Of a stretch of DNA of 64,000 bases, positions 1,606-43,106 are shown piece by piece. A program made the position numbers. Within the stretch, counting starts at the first letter, position 1. Each line of letters begins with the position of its first letter. Origin of the DNA: Diadema antillarum (Eukaryota); NCBI RefSeq assembly GCF_040938485.1, contig NW_027272560.1, forward strand, positions 62,001 to 126,000, read 5' to 3'.

Positions 1606-4590
1606 TCAGTGAACAGCAGTAATACCACGTCATCTAGAATAAGTAGATCTTAAATTGTACTGACTACTGACGTTGATATCAAGAATAGAAAAAGAACGGG
1701 ATAACAACGATCGCACAGTAATGGTCCAGTGTAAAGGTGGTGATACAGGTATAACACGTACAGTAAATAACACTTTAATACAAGGTGTAAACAAAGCCTT
1801 GAATGTGGCACGTTTACCTTACCATTTATAATGATGGCAAACCAATTCGAGATGAAACTGCAATCAAACGATGTCAGAAATTAATGCCCTCGATCCATCA
1901 ACACCCCCAGCTGCCATATCACCCGATCTGTGTGTTCTCACATATCATTCTCATAACGATATCAACCCAGGAAGTGCTGTGAAAAGTCTAGGCGATAGAG
2001 GGGGAGAGAGAGCGTGGCTCAACAGCGAAGCTGACATACCTACATAGAATCTCTCCTATTGACAGACGCTTAGAATAGTGACAAGGCAAGCGACTTAAGT
2101 TGCCCTCTGGAGTTGATATTCGAATGCAGTGGATCTTTCTCCGCGATCTGAAAAACAAACAAACAAACACACACCCACAAACAAACAAACACTGTCTGGG
2201 TTTCGATGAATAGACTATATCCATGCACAAAAGACAAAGCAAAATGACATCACACCCTGATGCCTTTATCGTTAATATGATTTTCCGTACACGTGATAGG
2301 GATTATTCCATCAAGCAGGACTTCAGCATGCCGTAAAAAGCCTTTGATACTCACGGTCTTTCGCAGACGAGCCGTACATCTTCCCTGAAGGAAAGTACCT
2401 GTGCGCGTGTATTAAAGTGCTACTGTCATTTCCCTACGTTGTGTGAGTGTGCGTACGTACAGAAGGAGAGGAAGAGAGCGAGAGGGGGTGGGGCGTTTAA
2501 AGAGACCAGGTATATTCACAACCCCCGTCACAACACAAAGAGCTAGCGTCTAGTTTCGGGTCAGATTCATTATAAATACAGTCATTTAGACCATGGCACA
2601 GGTCACACCGTATACCATCCTCGTCACGCTCGTAACACTACGATGTCTACGGCGATGTATGCACAGTAGGTCAATTTATTATGATAATCAGACGTTGCAA
2701 AATCGACAGAAAGCATTGGCGTACGATTCACAGTAATTCTTGCGTGAAATTCAACTTCCTTGATTATTCAGATATTCACATTGTGTACGTGGCTGGTCAG
2801 TCACATTAAGTATACCGACATGTTATTTTTAAAGAAGGAAAATATAACCGCCTGAAAGTATAGCTTCAGAAATGAGTCAATCAATCTGCTGAACTACTAA
2901 CATTTTTATACCGGTGAAAACTCCCGTGAAAACTGTTGTCGTCTCAATCTAATGGTTTCCGTATAAGGAATTCTACACATCACTGGCTGAATAGAATACT
3001 GCATCGCTACACTTGCTTTCAGCACACTGGACATATGATTATAGCTCCGAATTACCACCTCCCCCTCCCCCAATAATGTGATCGACAATCACAATGCTAA
3101 TACGACTAATGTAAACCTTGGAAATACTTAAATTGAACGGGTTTGTATTAACCCTCAGCCCCTCCCCCCTCCCCCATTGTTCTACGCGGTCAGACCTGCA
3201 GAGGGTTATAAGAGTTCAATCGATCACGACGGAATTCTGCATAGTCAGAAGAATTTTCCATTTCAGTATAATAATATTAGAGAGAGGTGTAAAGGGGAGA
3301 AAGGGAGAGAGAGATGGAGTATATTCGCCAGTAGTACTCTCTAAAAAAAATCGAGTGAAAATATTCACTCTTAAAAGAGTGAATACAAAAAAGAGTGAAT
3401 TTCGAGTGAAATTGGAGTGAATTTTGAGTGAAAATGCTCATTTTCACTCACTTCGGAGTGACGTCAGGGATCACTCGAAGATTTTGGAGTGATCCCTGAC
3501 GTCACTCCAAAGTGAGTGAAAATGAACATTTTCACTCAAAATTCACTCCAATTTCACTCGGAATTCACTCTTTTTTGTATTCACTCTTTTAAGAGTGAAT
3601 TTTTTCACTCGATTTTTTTTAGAGAGTAGGTATAATAAAGCAATCAATAATTGGTTATATCTAACGATAAATGCATACTCTTCCAATCTACTTAAAAGAG
3701 GTATATGATTAAAATCATTCAGCAGAATTATTGACTAACGGCGTAGAGGTTTGTTCAAAATTAAATGTAACAGCTGAAAGAATCACAATGATGTAAACGT
3801 TTTCGTCTAATAGTCATTCGTCAAGAAGATAACATTATAAAAGTGTTTCAAAACAAAGGTAATATTATCTAAGCCGAGAGGTTTCGTAGCTTTCCTGCGT
3901 GAGACCTTCTTTTACAGGTTGTGTTGTCCTCCATCATAATATAAAACGTCACCCCCCCCCCATGCTGAAGAGAAGTCACAGTATACATATGTTATGATAA
4001 TGAGCAACTAGCTTTCCCTTTTCCATCTGTACAATATGACGGGAGTAATGTGATCAAATGTAGCAGCCAAGCACAAGATGAGCACGTCAGTGGAGGTATG
4101 TATAAGGGACAGTAATACCCATCTTGACAAAGCTTTATTTGCATTCATTTATTTTTTTTTTCATTTCCAACAGAAACATACAGGAATAGAATGCACACAT
4201 TAAAATGACACCGTAAAATAAACGATATTTACACTTTTGCAAAACATTTTGAGTAAACAGGGTCGGTGGAGCCGGGGATGGGGGGCTCTCGGCCACTCCC
4301 CACTTTTTTTTTTCACCATAATACATAAGGTGTCACCCACTTTGGTCCCCCCCCCCCTATTTTTTCTAACCCCGGAAGTGCGTAAGTGGCACTAGAAAGG
4401 CTTTGATTTCCGCTGACTTTTTTTTGTTTTGTTTTGTTGTTGTTGTTGTTGTTTTGTTTTTTTTTGCTTGTCAGCTGAAGAAACCCCGAAGTCGCACCCT
4501 CAAGAAGTTGCGCTGAAGACTTTTTGTTTTTGCTGCTTGTTAGCTGATGGAACCCAGAAATGGCACCAGAAGTCTGAAGTGCCCCCCCCC

Positions 4591-4637
<47 letters not shown>

Positions 4638-40500: not shown

Positions 40501-43106
40501 ATATAAGTGTGGATACTGCTCCGAAACTTGCGGGCATGACTTGTTTGTGTCGACGGCTTGAATTTAATTGGTCGAGACCAAACAAAAAGCCTAGATATCT
40601 TTGATTCATGACTCAGAGCTAAGTTAAACATCGATAAGACCCGCTTACTTAGTTTAAACATTTATTTTTTTAAGCTTTTGCTATCTTGTGTTTTTTTTCA
40701 TTAGGATCTAAACATGAACATGGCCTACTTTTTCTAGATGGACTGTGTAGGCCTTCCATCGGACAGTTTGATACCGCTTGATCTAGATGGTACATAATAA
40801 AACAAATATGAGCAAAGCGGTCTTAAGTGTGAAAAAACTTGCAGATTTCATATTCTTCATAATTATTAATGATCAGATGCAACCAGTTTTTGTCAATTCC
40901 CTCACAGGTATTCCTTTGAAAAATGTAAATGACAGCATAAGCCGGTCGGAAATATGAAATTAATTCGAATGTAAAAACAAGCAACGGCGTTTTCAATCAC
41001 ACTATAGATTAAGAACTCAGCATTTATTAAAATTTCCAGGTCTCTGCTTGCCTTTAAAGACTCAGAATTTTATGTGGCTGGGCCTTGGCTGTTACAAATT
41101 ACAAATGTTTTGAACATCGCATTACACGTAAACATCTAATTAGACACTGAAGAAGGGATGACATACGGCCTGTCTTGGAAGGGCAGCCAAATATCGTAAC
41201 AGGATGTGGCTATATTGAGCAGTGATTATGCAGAGACATCGAGCGTACCTTTTGGCACACTCTTTCGGGGTTTTTTTTTTTCTCATTTTTTTACATTATT
41301 GATTCGGGGAAAGAAAACTTAAATCTGACAACAATCACTGTAGAACGACAGGGCGGATGACATGGATGGCAAACCAAAACAAAACATGCCCTTGAACACG
41401 TGTTGAATCGAAAAGGACAGGAAACTAGATTACTCTATTATTTGCAATCGGAAACTGATAAACCATGGTAAGTTCCTGACTTTAATCGGCATGCTTTTTG
41501 CAGCTGTTGAAGGTAGAAGATTCTTTAAGGTGCTGTTAAAAGTGTCAAATTTTCCATCTTATAGTACATGGACGGTACACACTCGATTGTAGGCCTACTA
41601 TTACCTATGGAAAAGAATTTATTCCTTTTTTGTTGTTTTGGCTTAAGATATTTGGATAAATAGTCCACGAAATATTGTTTTCGTTTCAGACAAGATGGAT
41701 TATCCAGAACTTGTAATAACTCATTTCGTAATCCTGTGCGCTTATCCATCAAACTCTATGTCCAAAAAACCACATGCCTGTGGTGGGCGCTGTATCTTTT
41801 TCTTTCATCATGATTCGTGTTTTTCATACTTGGAACCTTTGATGCGGAATTGAAAAAGATAAGTACAGTGTGTATTTTCCATTTCAGCATTATTCTGGGA
41901 AATCACTCGTGTTCACAGGTTGCAGAATAACCAAAAGACTCTAAATCGCAAAATCTATAATTGATCCTGAAGTTGGCAATATGGCCTACATTTTAAGAGA
42001 CCAACGATAAAAGGATTGCATAGTTTTGGTTGAGATATAGGGGATTCAGATTTTAACCTTTTTTTTTTTGCGAGATGATTAGAAACCATTTACGAAATAT
42101 TAAAGAGTGTACACGTCTACAAGAGGAGTTAAAATATTTTTTTCTGATGAACATCGGTTCTAATATGGATGAGTTATCTCAAAGCAAAGTAGAACAAAGT
42201 ACCTTTTATCAGGACCTCTTTGTTTTTGTTTTTTGGATATCTCAGCCATTTCAAAACCAATTTTCATCAAATAAACTTTGAATCACTCTAAGAATTATAT
42301 GCTTTCTCATATTTTATACAAGAGCTTCTCTCATTATTTAAAAAATATCATTGGAAAAACGTTTGAAACCTTAGGTCGTATCTCAACCGAACTGTACCAT
42401 CCCTTTAAATGAATTCAACAAGTTGCAGCAAAATTGATTTGCCATATTAGTAAGAAACAAGATGATTTATTTGGTAAAATTATTCCATGACTTCAAAGTT
42501 GAAACGCAATTCATTATGTTTGTATGTTGTTTGCGTTGAAGGATATCGATCCGTTTCATTTTTAATTTCAATTTCAATTTCAATGTATTTTTCTCTTTTT
42601 TATTTTCATTTTTTTTTTCAGAAATACAATACACAAACGAAAATACAGTAATATAGGAATTTTTGTTAAAATTAAGTTTTCTAAGAAAATTTCAATTTTA
42701 CAAATGTTAAGTGCTGTAAGGGCCGTCACAATGAACACATGTAATGCTTGATGAGATGATAGCCCATTTCTTATGACCAAACAGTCAAAAAATGTTCTCT
42801 AGGATTTACACATAAAAGAAGGGAAAAGGGTGCAAGTAGGGGGGGGATGATTCACGAATGGCCTGGTTTGATTGTACCTAAAAAGAGAATAACTATGATA
42901 ACTGATTAATTTCTGAAGGATGTTCACAAGAATTTACTGTTACAACATGGTGGGGATGTGGAGACACACACACACACACACACAAAAAAAACCTCGCGGA
43001 AGGAACTTCTTGTGGGTATATGGCACTGTATGTGTGAGTTTGAACGTGTGTATACGTATTTCGTCTTCTCGTTTATGTGTATATTTGTGGATGTGTTTGC
43101 GTGTGT

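What the first reader, a model, noticed from the sequence alone, without database searches (positions are those of the whole stretch)
4069..40829. Two-receptor module duplicated in tandem as a ~16-kb block, all four genes intact
Seen: units 4069-20277 and 24267-40829 are collinear and separated by a unique ~4-kb spacer. All four ORFs are open despite about 12 indel events around them. A1/A2 show ~12 synonymous vs 6 non-synonymous differences, consistent with both being constrained. The only gap is inside unit 1, not at the junction, and non-coding divergence reaches roughly 10-15% in places. Both points favour true paralogues, but two divergent haplotypes assembled in tandem cannot be excluded in a highly heterozygous marine invertebrate.
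[Added by the scan's program, not by the reader: the finding's places include an assembly gap (unread letters, written N; its length is only estimated) at 17910 to 18037. Whether the letters on both sides are continuous or in frame is not known: test that first.]
Basis: partly seen in the sequence, partly recalled or inferred. Interest (0 to 1): 0.68.

Follow-up and report, generated by a model that had tools for sequence, protein, structure and literature searches.

The report
Tandem-duplicated pair of orphan receptor genes
A 16-kb stretch carrying two related cell-surface receptor genes is present twice, 4 kb apart, and most likely reflects an ordinary real gene duplication rather than an assembly error, with all four genes still kept working by selection.

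Summary
Units 4064-20273 and 24261-40826 are collinear (17 blocks, 11,746 aligned columns, 827 mismatches, 128 small indels, 13 large copy-specific indels) and separated by a unique 3,987-bp spacer. Each unit carries two single-exon class A GPCR reading frames: A, 447 aa, and B, 423 aa from the shared Met. A1/A2 differ by exactly 12 synonymous and 6 non-synonymous changes.

The N run (17910-18037) lies 1.4 kb downstream of B1. No long frame enters it, and its flanks are collinear with the gap-free unit 2. I did not fill it.

Selection is clear: 0 of 128 small indels fall in coding columns (36.7 expected), with omega 0.16 for A and 0.36 for B.

Real paralogues are favoured (about 0.8):
- Neutral divergence is about 12%.
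- Homology ends abruptly on both sides of each unit.
- The unit-1 tail, the spacer and all of unit 2 lie in one gap-free stretch.
- Divergence is continuous across the gap.

Haplotypes assembled in tandem remain possible (about 0.12), because read depth could not be tested.

Divergence is mosaic. A 2.8-kb tract around gene A is only 2.4% diverged, even at four-fold sites, which suggests gene conversion.

The receptors resemble monoamine receptors overall but lack D3.32, DRY and W6.48. This is an ordinary kind of event.

The parts
4064..20273 (+). Duplication unit 1 (16,210 bp). It carries genes A1 and B1 and contains the N run.
   Evidence: Collinear chain of 17 BLAST blocks with unit 2. Homology begins and ends abruptly.
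24261..40826 (+). Duplication unit 2 (16,566 bp), gap-free. It carries genes A2 and B2.
20274..24260 (.). Unique 3,987-bp spacer between the units. It holds a 293-bp tandem repeat (22941-23735, 2.7 copies).
   Evidence: No match to the left flank, the right flank or either unit. Tandem repeat from TRF. Four of four spacer ORFs had no Pfam hit.
10821..12164 (+). Gene A1, single-exon CDS, 447 aa, class A GPCR.
   Evidence: Pfam 7tm_1 E = 2.1e-46, model positions 1-260 of 260. Motifs.
28357..29700 (+). Gene A2, 447 aa. It differs from A1 at 6 residues and 18 nucleotides, with no indel.
15230..16501 (+). Gene B1, CDS from the shared Met, 423 aa. The ORF as listed starts at 15209.
   Evidence: A 17-nt indel at 15193/33311 lies upstream of the shared Met. 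Recount.
33331..34602 (+). Gene B2, CDS from the shared Met, 423 aa. The ORF as listed starts at 33301. It differs from B1 at 29 residues and 55 nucleotides, with no indel.
17910..18037 (.). Assembly gap (128 N) in non-coding DNA of unit 1.
   Evidence: Not filled.
9533..12326 (+). Low-divergence tract in unit 1, paired with 26616-29872 in unit 2. It has 68 differences in 2,785 columns (2.4%) and covers 1.3 kb upstream of A plus the A CDS. Candidate gene-conversion tract.
   Evidence: Segmentation. Change-point test 2*dLL = 161, reached by 0 of 100 permutations. A four-fold sites 9 of 244 against intergenic 325 of 2,856, p = 5.5e-5.
15255..17143 (+). Second lower-divergence segment, paired with 33356-35647 (4.3%). 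It covers B and about 640 bp downstream.
   Evidence: Within it, synonymous differences are 18 of 153 sites in codons 1-214 but 0 of 86 sites in codons 215-337.
15872..16240 (+). B1 segment coding the third intracellular loop (codons 215-337), paired with 33973-34341 in B2. It has 12 nucleotide changes in 11 codons, all non-synonymous and none at a third position.
4470..7114 (.). Unit-1-only 2,645-bp segment (insertion here, or deletion in unit 2).
   Evidence: No Pfam hit in 4 of 4 ORFs.
7421..7821 (.). Unit-1-only 401-bp element with terminal inverted repeats (18 of 20) and a TA duplication.
8356..8883 (.). Unit-1-only 528-bp element with terminal inverted repeats (16 of 20).
19261..19833 (.). 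Unit-1-only 573-bp element with terminal inverted repeats (18 of 20), flanked by TTAA.
   Evidence: internal inverted repeat I1.
27547..27992 (.). Unit-2-only 446-bp element with terminal inverted repeats (17 of 20) and a 7-8-bp target duplication. It lies inside the low-divergence tract, 365 bp upstream of A2. A related copy lies at 112-281.
32705..33216 (.). Unit-2-only 512-bp segment just upstream of B2.
34662..35038 (.). Unit-2-only 377-bp element just after the B2 stop, with inverted termini (17 of 20). It belongs to a repeat family also found at 42008-42408, 45602-45949, 18625-18904 and 39206-39414.
35873..37205 (+). Unit-2-only 1,333-bp segment with a reverse-transcriptase fragment (ORF 36100-37008). 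It replaces 268 bp of unit 1.
   Evidence: RVT_1 E = 5.4e-7, 30.0 bits against a cut-off of 29.6.
37756..38711 (.). Unit-2-only 956-bp insertion ending in an (ATCAA)n tail with a short target duplication. Retroposon-like.
39762..40401 (.). Unit-2-only 640-bp insertion ending in a (GAA)n tail with a target duplication of about 12 bp. Retroposon-like.
10774..10788 (+). Pyrimidine-rich stretch ending in AG, 32 nt upstream of the A1 start codon and identical in A2. Candidate splice acceptor of a 5'-UTR intron, judged by motif only.
   Evidence: alignment of the 200 nt upstream. Inference; no transcript data.

Best explanation
This is a real segmental duplication on one chromosome. An older tandem pair of related, single-exon class A GPCR genes (A and B, 56% identical in protein) was copied as a block of roughly 13-16 kb and placed 4 kb downstream in the same orientation.

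Since then the two copies have drifted apart by about 12% at unconstrained sites. Each has collected its own transposable-element insertions.

Purifying selection has kept all four reading frames free of any indel or stop. All class A landmarks are intact in all four, so all four are probably working receptors.

The divergence is a mosaic:
- A tract of about 2.8 kb, from 1.3 kb upstream of A to just past its stop codon, is only 2.4% diverged, even at four-fold degenerate sites. I read this as a later gene conversion between the paralogues that re-homogenised gene A.
- The 5' half of B shows the full neutral divergence at synonymous sites.
- The loop-3 segment of B shows amino-acid changes only.

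The receptors are orphan members of the monoamine-like branch of class A. They cannot bind amines in the classical way because the TM3 aspartate is missing. Their extracellular loops 2 and 3 are the best conserved parts, so A and B probably recognise the same or a similar extracellular ligand. They differ in the long intracellular loop 3 that contacts G proteins and arrestins.

What is shown: the duplication in the assembly, the constraint, the mosaic, and the motif states.

What is inferred: that the assembly is right, that gene conversion occurred, and the statements about ligand and coupling.
For: Anatomy:
- 17 collinear blocks. There is no third copy or fragment of A or B elsewhere in the window (tblastn at E <= 1 finds only the four loci).
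- Homology stops abruptly at both ends of both units.
- The left flank, the spacer and the right flank are unrelated to each other. In five Smith-Waterman comparisons the scores were 26-36 against shuffled maxima of 27-35. The one score above its null (36 against 34) is a 29-nt match. BLAST agrees.

Join at the gap:
- The left sequence ends at unit-2 position 37461 and the right sequence resumes at 37623.
- So the gap-free stretch 18038-64000 contains a 2.2-kb unit-1 tail, the spacer and the complete unit 2 with its own tail.
- If the right-hand contig began at an unrelated place, landing within about 200 bp of the left contig's end in a 16.5-kb unit has a chance of roughly 2% (my rough estimate).
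- Divergence is the same on both sides of the gap: one segment, 17144-20273, at 11.6%.

Divergence level:
- A-B intergenic 325 of 2,856 = 11.4%.
- Synonymous sites of B codons 1-214: 18 of 153 = 11.7%.
- B proteins differ at 29 of 423 residues.
- For scale, one of the most diverse metazoans has a mean heterozygosity of 2.73% and pi of 2.97% (PMC13577491, passages).

Constraint:
- 0 of 128 small indels lie in 2,616 coding columns, with 36.7 expected, P about 1e-16.
- None of the 13 large indels lies in a CDS.
- A: 12 synonymous of 328 sites against 6 non-synonymous of 1,013, omega 0.16, Fisher p = 1.7e-4.
- B from the shared Met: 25 of 303 against 30 of 966, omega 0.36, p = 3e-4.
- Derived changes are balanced between the copies: B1 6 against B2 8, A1 1 against A2 3.
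- N1.50, D2.50, C3.25, R3.50, W4.50, the ECL2 Cys, P5.50, P6.50 and NPxxY are present in all four.

Conversion:
- The best low-divergence segment, 9538-12170, has 60 of 2,625 differences against 767 of 8,630 outside it. 2*dLL = 161, reached by 0 of 100 permutations.
- A four-fold sites: 9 of 244 against intergenic, p = 5.5e-5. B four-fold sites: 18 of 207, not different from intergenic (p = 0.30).

Post-duplication insertions:
- 5 of the 13 large copy-specific indels have terminal inverted repeats of 16-18 of 20. The other 8 score 10-13 of 20.
- Two more have simple-repeat tails with target duplications, and one carries an RVT_1 fragment.

Family:
- Pfam 7tm_1.
- All 60 listed best PDB hits are monoamine receptors, or monoamine or muscarinic receptors with the four-sequence profile.

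Background: tandem arrays of lineage-specific class A GPCRs are common in lophotrochozoans (PMC11886862, passages) and in amphioxus (PMC2246102, passages).
Against: No read depth, k-mer, long-read or population data could be examined, so the assembly is taken on trust.

A gap does lie between the A1/B1 genes and the A2/B2 genes. That is one of the four hallmarks of false duplications in Ko et al. 2022.

Haplotig contamination can be heavy in marine invertebrate assemblies.
- In the eastern oyster assembly about 100 of 685 Mb was masked as haplotigs and chimeric contigs had to be broken.
- That picture resembles A1/A2 (98.7% identical CDS, flanks full of indels).

Abrupt loss of homology at both ends is also what a haplotype 'bubble' traversed twice between collapsed flanks would give. 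So that argument counts against scaffolded haplotigs more than against a chimeric contig.

The species is unknown, so its heterozygosity is unknown. Mosaic divergence and omega below 1 are expected for alleles too.

For gene conversion specifically:
- The low-divergence tract ends close to the stop codon of A, which also fits selection on the transcript.
- A 446-bp unit-2-only element sits inside the tract. It must have inserted after the conversion or been skipped by it.

The origin of the 4-kb spacer is unexplained.
Confidence: 0.8

Rival explanations
1. False duplication. The locus holds only one A-B unit, and units 1 and 2 are two very divergent haplotypes of one heterozygous individual that the assembler laid down one after the other. 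The spacer would be a haplotype-specific insertion at the edge of the divergent block.
For: - A contig break (N run 17910-18037) lies between the A1/B1 and A2/B2 genes. 'Gaps between duplicated pairs' is a hallmark of false duplications (PMC9516828, passages).
- Oyster precedent: about 100 Mb of haplotigs, chimeric contigs, and an allelic pair with 98% identical CDS and very different introns.
- The flanks are present once and homology ends abruptly, as for a bubble between collapsed flanks.
- A1/A2 differ by only 1.3%.
- Atlas leads point to a mollusc-like genome, a group with heavy heterozygosity problems.
Against: - The gap is not the junction. Its two sides continue one and the same unit, collinear with unit 2. 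A single gap-free stretch therefore already contains the unit tail twice, with divergence (11.6%) equal to that left of the gap.
- There is no gap and no shared repeat at either real junction, 20273/20274 or 24260/24261. An assembler would need a chimeric join there.
- A 3,987-bp unique spacer must be explained ad hoc.
- Neutral divergence of about 12% and a 6.9% protein difference in B are about four times the genome-wide diversity of one of the most diverse animals known. Under a simple exponential coalescent that has a chance of about 2% per locus (my rough estimate; lower for less diverse species).
Confidence: 0.12
2. The duplication is real, but the mosaic of low and high divergence owes nothing to gene conversion. 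On this view the 2.4% tract around gene A reflects strong constraint on promoter, 5' UTR, coding and synonymous sites, or a locally low mutation rate.
For: - Both low-divergence segments coincide with the genes.
- The tract ends within about 160 bp of the A stop codon.
- A candidate splice acceptor upstream of A is conserved, so part of the upstream tract may be transcribed or regulatory.
- A unit-2-only 446-bp element inside the tract was not homogenised.
Against: - Four-fold degenerate sites of A (9 of 244, 3.7%) are three times less diverged than intergenic DNA (p = 5.5e-5). Those of B (18 of 207) are not.
- Within the single gene B, synonymous differences drop from 18 of 153 sites to 0 of 86 sites. 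Constraint on protein sequence cannot explain that.
- 1.3 kb of non-coding DNA at 3.2% (41 of 1,275) against 11.4% would be unusually strong non-coding constraint.
Confidence: 0.3
3. The duplication exists in the sequenced animal but is a copy-number polymorphism present on only one of its two chromosomes, or the scaffold join at the N run links pieces that are not adjacent.
For: Nothing in the sequence excludes a polymorphic duplication. The length of the N run is only an estimate (note with the finding).
Against: - About 12% neutral divergence and at least 8 copy-specific mobile-element insertions show an old event, which makes fixation more likely than not.
- The flanks of the N run match adjacent positions of unit 2, with 131 positions against 161. 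This supports the join.
Confidence: 0.05

Closest known systems
[quoted passage not shown]
   Same: Single-exon rhodopsin-family receptor genes lie head to tail within a few kb. Older (A against B) and younger (unit 1 against unit 2) duplications are nested, and the copies are kept intact.
   Different: Here two genes were copied together as one block with a 4-kb unique spacer. The receptors sit nearest the monoamine branch rather than being typical chemosensory expansions. Only two copies of each gene are in the window. I could not check whether this cluster is already catalogued: the papers' supplements are closed and no eukaryotic sequence database was available.
False 'heterotype' duplications, that is haplotigs assembled as extra loci (Ko et al. 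2022, PMC9516828; eastern oyster haplotig masking, bioRxiv 10.1101/2022.08.29.505626)
   Same: Two similar copies lie side by side in a probably heterozygous invertebrate genome, with a contig break between the gene pairs and near-identical coding sequence in one pair.
   Different: The gap is inside one copy, with collinear flanks. The true junctions are gap-free. A unique spacer separates the copies. Neutral divergence is about 12%. Depth, linked reads and k-mers, which are the other three criteria, are untestable here.
Monoamine and muscarinic receptors (beta-adrenergic, dopamine, serotonin, muscarinic)
   Same: These are the best sequence matches among solved structures: 60 of 60 listed, E down to 6e-24. 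The receptors share the long third intracellular loop, the C3.25-ECL2 disulfide cysteines, D2.50 and NPxxY.
   Different: D3.32, the amine counter-ion, is T in A and G in B. DRY is NRW, W6.48 is L, and there are no TM5 serines at 5.42, 5.43 or 5.46. The resemblance is to the fold and the branch, not to the ligand chemistry.
Interlocus gene conversion between young tandem duplicates (a general phenomenon, recalled; no specific paper read)
   Same: A sharply bounded tract has several-fold lower divergence, including at silent sites, and is embedded in more diverged duplicated DNA.
   Different: Only two sequences are available, so the direction and the event itself cannot be shown phylogenetically. 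Allelic recombination would mimic it if the copies were haplotypes.
Self-activating orphan receptors GPR52/GPR21, in which extracellular loop 2 acts as a built-in agonist (search listing and abstract openings only)
   Same: These are orphan class A receptors whose extracellular loop 2 is functionally central. Here ECL2 and ECL3 are the best conserved parts between A and B: 37 of 40 identical against 169 of 246 elsewhere, p = 0.001.
   Different: There is no special sequence similarity. Neither appears among the 60 best listed PDB matches. The structural test could not be run. This is a lead only.

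Membership tests
Class A (rhodopsin-family) GPCR | Full-length match to the Pfam 7tm_1 model above the curated cut-off | tested here: met
   All four proteins score 153.5-158.9 bits against a cut-off of 30.5, covering model positions 1-260 of 260.
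Class A (rhodopsin-family) GPCR | Landmark residues N1.50, D2.50, C3.25 with an ECL2 Cys, R3.50, W4.50, P5.50, P6.50, NPxxY | tested here: met
   Present in A1, A2, B1 and B2. Positions were assigned from the HMMER alignment to the beta-2 adrenergic receptor.
Class A (rhodopsin-family) GPCR | Canonical D/E-R-Y at 3.49-3.51 and the CWxP toggle tryptophan at 6.48 | tested here: not met
   The motifs are N-R-W and C-L-L-P in all four. These are variable hallmarks, not required for membership.
Monoamine (aminergic) receptors | Aspartate at 3.32 as counter-ion for the amine (feature recalled from general knowledge) | tested here: not met
   T in A1 and A2, G in B1 and B2. The position is 17 residues before N3.49, ungapped in the alignment to beta-2 D113.
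Monoamine (aminergic) receptors | Closest overall sequence similarity to the aminergic cluster | tested here: met
   60 of 60 listed best PDB matches, by single sequence and by profile. No tree with reference receptors could be built.
Opsins | Retinal-binding lysine at 7.43 (recalled) | tested here: not met
   S in A and T in B at 7.43.
Melatonin receptors | NRY at 3.49-3.51 together with NAxxY in TM7 (recalled) | tested here: not met
   N-R-W resembles NRY, but TM7 has NPMIY or NPLIY. No melatonin receptor is among the 60 best listed PDB hits.
True tandem or segmental duplication (as against a false heterotype duplication, criteria of Ko et al. 2022) | No assembly gap or unsupported join between the two copies | tested here: inconclusive
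   Both junctions (20273/4 and 24260/1) are gap-free. However, an N run lies 2.2 kb inside unit 1, hence between the gene pairs. Its flanks are collinear with unit 2.
True tandem or segmental duplication (as against a false heterotype duplication, criteria of Ko et al. 2022) | Diploid read depth, concordant linked reads, and no haplotype-specific single-copy k-mer pattern | not testable with these tools
   No reads are available.
True tandem or segmental duplication (as against a false heterotype duplication, criteria of Ko et al. 2022) | Divergence well above allelic diversity | tested here: inconclusive
   Neutral sites differ by about 12%, against 2.7-3.0% in a very diverse animal. The species of this window is not known.
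Interlocus gene conversion | A tract of significantly lower divergence that includes silent sites | tested here: met
Interlocus gene conversion | Phylogenetic incongruence against orthologues in an outgroup | not testable with these tools

The most novel reading that the evidence does not exclude
A and B represent an undescribed invertebrate branch of monoamine-like receptors. It has lost the amine-binding aspartate, DRY and the toggle tryptophan, and it works through its almost invariant extracellular loops 2 and 3, either as a lid or built-in agonist or as the site for a non-amine ligand. After the block duplication the two gene pairs took opposite paths. A was re-homogenised by gene conversion, keeping dosage. 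B was driven apart specifically in the G-protein and arrestin-contacting loop 3 by adaptive amino-acid change (12 replacement and 0 silent changes), giving two receptors with one input and different outputs.
Probability: 0.12. Interest if true: 0.5.

Novelty: new member of a known kind. Interest (0 to 1): 0.28.

Why it matters
The practical value lies in annotation. If the copies are real, the genome has four rather than two receptors of this orphan type, and gene-family counts for this species should include them. If they are haplotypes, the count is inflated. That is a known source of false 'expansions' in heterozygous marine invertebrates.

The locus is also a compact natural experiment on the fate of young duplicates. 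One unit contains a pair that stays nearly identical and a pair that diverges mainly in its signalling loop.

None of this would surprise a specialist. Tandem GPCR duplications, post-duplication transposon insertions and gene conversion are all textbook processes.

Tried and rejected
No model and no fold search were made, so the idea that loop 2 occupies the pocket is untested.

Third copy or pseudogene of A or B in the window: none (tblastn).

The whole unit as a mobile element: there are no terminal inverted repeats at the unit ends. The 8 inverted pairs found in 3800-24500 are all internal or low-complexity. No transposase-like Pfam hit was found.

Spacer as a recognisable transposon or gene: 4 of 4 ORFs had no Pfam hit. 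The 181-codon open frame at 20290-20832 has no start codon and no hit.

Spacer as a relic of a longer duplicated unit: no similarity to the 4 kb right of unit 2 or left of unit 1.

RNA genes: Rfam gave 0 matches at gathering thresholds and tRNA scanning gave 0.

An overlapping frame to explain the silent-site conservation in B loop 3: the longest alternative open frame is 62 codons. Rejected.

Species identification:
- No eukaryotic sequence collection was open.
- The Somatomedin-B plus 7tm_2 architecture of the neighbouring gene was called unique to amphioxus in 2008. However, the Atlas places that ORF nearest to mostly molluscan clusters.
- The nearest Atlas clusters to A1 are mostly chordate or molluscan.
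- The phylum is therefore undecided and the amphioxus lead is dropped.

Literature:
- 'NRW motif' with GPCR: 0 papers.
- 'AmphiAmR' and a gene-conversion search gave nothing I used.

Full report
**What was checked first: the gap.**
- The window has one N run, 17910-18037, 128 letters long.
- It lies in non-coding DNA, 1,409 bp after the stop codon of gene B1 and 2,236 bp before the end of unit 1.
- In all six frames, the stop-free runs that touch it are at most 36 codons on the left and 42 on the right.
- The only 'ORF' across it (17851-18165, minus strand) exists because N is read as X.
- The real letters on its two sides align, in order and orientation, to adjacent parts of the gap-free unit 2: 17644-17908 with 37206-37461, and 18040-18176 with 37623-37755. 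The interval is 131 positions in unit 1 and 161 in unit 2.
- So nothing coding depends on the gap, and the join is corroborated by the other copy. True continuity cannot be proven from sequence.

**The observation.**
- Self-comparison gives a chain of 17 collinear blocks between 4064-20273 and 24261-40826. It has 11,746 aligned columns, 827 mismatches, 128 small gap openings, and block identities of 76-98%.
- The spacer, 20274-24260 (3,987 bp), is unique in the window apart from its own 293-bp tandem repeat and a few 21-27-nt low-complexity matches.
- Four long ORFs are open.
- Each matches the full Pfam 7tm_1 model, 1-260 of 260, with E from 1e-44 to 2e-46.
- No further copy or fragment of A or B exists in the window.

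Two corrections apply:
- The unit as a whole has 128 small and 13 large indels, not about 12. Fifteen small ones lie within 300 bp of the ORFs.
- The B frames as listed (from 15209 and 33301) begin upstream of a 17-nt indel. The homologous start is the Met at 15230 / 33331, giving 423 aa for both.

**Constraint.**
- None of the 128 small indels falls in the 2,616 aligned coding columns. At the non-coding rate 36.7 are expected, P about 1e-16.
- None of the 13 large indels touches a CDS.
- For A, dS = 0.038, dN = 0.006, omega 0.16, Fisher p = 1.7e-4.
- For B from the shared Met there are 55 nucleotide and 29 amino-acid differences, with dS = 0.087, dN = 0.032, omega 0.36, p = 3e-4.
- Using the other gene as outgroup, derived changes are balanced: B1 6 against B2 8 with 20 unpolarisable, and A1 1 against A2 3 with 2 unpolarisable. 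No copy looks like a decaying one.
- All class A landmarks are present in all four.

**Paralogues or haplotypes?** The tools give no reads, so this rests on anatomy.

(i) The gap is not the junction.
- Its flanks continue one unit. The gap-free stretch 18038-64000 therefore contains a 2.2-kb tail of unit 1, the spacer, and the whole of unit 2 with its own tail.
- A scaffolder abutting two haplotigs would not be expected to resume within about 160 bp of where the left contig stopped. My rough estimate of that chance is 2%.

(ii) Divergence does not change at the gap. The segmentation puts 17144-20273 in a single segment at 11.6%.

(iii) Both real junctions are free of N and of shared repeats. 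The left flank, spacer and right flank are mutually unrelated.
- In five Smith-Waterman comparisons the scores were 26-36 against shuffled maxima of 27-35. The one above its null is a 29-nt match.
- BLAST agrees.

(iv) Neutral divergence is high.
- It is 11.4% in the A-B intergenic region (325 of 2,856), 10.0% downstream, and 11.7% at synonymous sites of B codons 1-214.
- The B proteins differ by 6.9%.
- For scale, European amphioxus, described as among the most diverse metazoans, has a mean heterozygosity of 2.73% and pi of 2.97% (PMC13577491, passages).

Points against paralogy:
- A gap does lie between the two gene pairs. That is one of the four hallmarks of false duplication in Ko et al. 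2022 (PMC9516828, passages).
- In the eastern oyster assembly about 100 of 685 Mb were haplotigs and chimeric contigs occurred. A pair with 98% identical CDS but very different introns proved allelic (bioRxiv 10.1101/2022.08.29.505626, passages).
- Abrupt ends of homology between single-copy flanks would also arise if a haplotype bubble were traversed twice.
- The species, and so its diversity, is unknown.

I put real paralogues at about 0.8 and tandemly assembled haplotypes at about 0.12.

**History written in the units.**
- A and B are 56% identical in protein, with saturated synonymous sites. The A-B pair is therefore old and the block duplication is much younger.
- After the duplication each copy acquired its own insertions.
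- Five of the 13 large copy-specific indels have terminal inverted repeats matching at 16-18 of 20 positions, with short target duplications: TA, TTAA, and 7-8 bp. The other eight score 10-13 of 20 and serve as background.
- Two more end in simple-repeat tails with target duplications.
- One carries a reverse-transcriptase fragment (RVT_1, E = 5.4e-7, just above the cut-off).
- No inverted termini mark the unit itself.
- The mechanism that placed the copy 4 kb away, and the origin of the spacer, remain unexplained. No repeat at the breakpoints suggests unequal crossing-over, so a replication- or end-joining-based event is my inference.

**Mosaic divergence.** Binary segmentation gives five segments:

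| Segment (unit 1) | Divergence |
|---|---|
| 4064-9532 | 6.4% |
| 9533-12326 | 2.4% |
| 12327-15254 | 11.9% |
| 15255-17143 | 4.3% |
| 17144-20273 | 11.6% |

- The best single low-divergence tract, 9538-12170, has 60 of 2,625 differences against 767 of 8,630 outside. None of 100 permutations reaches its likelihood gain.
- It is not just protein constraint. Four-fold sites of A differ at 9 of 244 (3.7%) against 11.4% intergenic (p = 5.5e-5). The 1.3 kb upstream of A differ at 41 of 1,275. Four-fold sites of B (18 of 207) do not differ from intergenic.
- I read this as gene conversion of A between the paralogues, at about 0.55-0.6 given that the duplication is real.
- The rival is constraint or a low local mutation rate. 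It is favoured by the tract ending near the stop codon and by an unconverted 446-bp element inside it.

**A curiosity in B.**
- In the loop-3 segment (codons 215-337) all 12 nucleotide changes, in 11 codons, are at first or second codon positions and replace amino acids.
- No synonymous change occurs between codons 204 and 340. The rest of B has 23 synonymous and 18 non-synonymous codons (Fisher p = 0.001).
- Against strict neutrality the excess is only borderline (P = 0.041).
- The partition was chosen after seeing the data, although it follows the natural domain boundary.
- No alternative frame longer than 62 codons overlaps the segment.

**What the receptors are.**
- All 60 listed best matches among solved structures are monoamine receptors, or monoamine or muscarinic receptors with the four-sequence profile, at E down to 6e-24.
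- Yet position 3.32 is T in A and G in B, not aspartate. DRY is NRW. CWxP is CLLP. Positions 5.42, 5.43 and 5.46 carry no serine. Position 7.43 is S or T, not lysine.
- They are therefore members of class A and relatives of the monoamine branch. They are not classical amine receptors, opsins or melatonin receptors.
- Between A and B the extracellular loops 2 and 3 are the best conserved parts, 37 of 40 identical against 169 of 246 in the rest of the core (p = 0.001). Loop 3 on the inside is 24% identical. Loop boundaries are my estimate, guided by the alignment.
- This suggests a shared extracellular input and different intracellular outputs. That is inference only.
- A search for 'NRW motif' with GPCR found no paper.

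**Gene structure.**
- The coding sequences are single exons.
- A pyrimidine-rich stretch ending in AG lies 32 nt upstream of the A start and is identical in both copies. It may be the acceptor of a 5'-UTR intron (motif only).
- For the neighbouring multi-exon gene, the exons were searched one by one and the joined step was left out.

**Surroundings and source.**
- Downstream on the minus strand, 45921-48482 is an 853-codon open frame with 7tm_2 (E = 2.9e-11) and a sub-threshold Somatomedin-B match.
- All 10 of its PDB matches are adhesion GPCRs.
- A likely next exon lies at 44842-45234 (7tm_2 C-terminus, E = 0.053).
- Its nearest Atlas clusters are mostly molluscan. The nearest clusters for A1 are mostly chordate or molluscan.
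- The phylum is not established, and nothing in the window was taken for human.
- Rfam and tRNA scans were empty.

**Verdict.**
- This is a correctly observed, statistically solid and biologically ordinary feature: a young block duplication of an older receptor-gene pair, with all four genes under purifying selection.
- It is probably real rather than an assembly artefact, and it shows signs of gene conversion in one pair.
- It is a new member of a known kind. Tandem arrays of lineage-specific class A GPCRs are widespread in such genomes (PMC11886862 and PMC2246102, passages). Their supplements, which could show whether this cluster is already listed, were closed.

Noticed in passing
window 45921-48482 (-), and 44842-45234 (-): An 853-codon open frame encodes an adhesion-type GPCR: 7tm_2 E = 2.9e-11, with Somatomedin_B at 20.3 bits, below its cut-off of 23.1. 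No GPS or GAIN domain was detected. All 10 PDB matches are adhesion GPCRs. A weak 7tm_2 C-terminal match in the next open frame suggests a following exon. The nearest Atlas clusters (7tm_2 + DUF8401, with Somatomedin_B in 10-19% of members) are mostly molluscan. So the 2008 statement that this domain combination is unique to amphioxus no longer holds.
   Followed up: partly
A1 residues about 166-194 and 391-401 (window 11316-11402 and 11991-12023), and the same regions in A2, B1 and B2: Extracellular loops 2 and 3 are the most conserved parts between the old paralogues A and B, with 37 of 40 residues identical against 169 of 246 in the rest of the core. This is unusual for loops and hints that they are functionally central.
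   Followed up: partly
window 15872-16240 and 33973-34341: The loop-3 coding segment of B has 12 replacement and 0 silent changes between the copies, none at a third codon position. No overlapping frame explains it. Evidence for adaptive change is borderline.
   Followed up: partly
window 34657-35049, 42008-42408, 45602-45949, 18625-18904, 39206-39414: Copies of one short repeat family (67-81% alike, both orientations). The pair 18625-18904 / 39206-39414 sits at matching positions in the two unit tails, so it predates the duplication. The copy at 34662-35038 is unit-2-only.
   Followed up: partly
window 50-281 versus 26136-26227 and 27547-27992: The far left flank carries sequence related (72-88%) to two unit-2-only insertions, so the same mobile-element family was active around the locus.
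   Followed up: no
window 36100-37008 (+): A truncated reverse-transcriptase open frame (RVT_1, the C-terminal part of the model only) lies inside a unit-2-only 1.3-kb segment. It is a dead retroelement fragment.
   Followed up: partly
window 13056-13224 and 13200-13275; 30512-30585: A 60-nt-arm inverted repeat and a 16-bp tandem array lie in the A-B intergenic region. The array in unit 2 reads as the reverse complement of that in unit 1, and an inverted match links 13039-13292 to 30496-30766. This points to a small palindromic element or a local inversion.
   Followed up: no
window 22941-23735: A 293-bp tandem repeat, 2.7 copies at 81% identity, lies inside the otherwise unique spacer.
   Followed up: no
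window 61223-61837 (+): A 205-codon open frame has a weak, sub-threshold PH-domain match (E = 0.0036, 18.2 bits against a cut-off of 25.1). It may be an exon of another gene.
   Followed up: no
window 4064-4100 and 24261-24297: The first bases of both units read like a short exon end: an ATG, five codons, then GTATGT. The duplication boundary may sit just upstream of a 5' exon. This was seen by eye.
   Followed up: no
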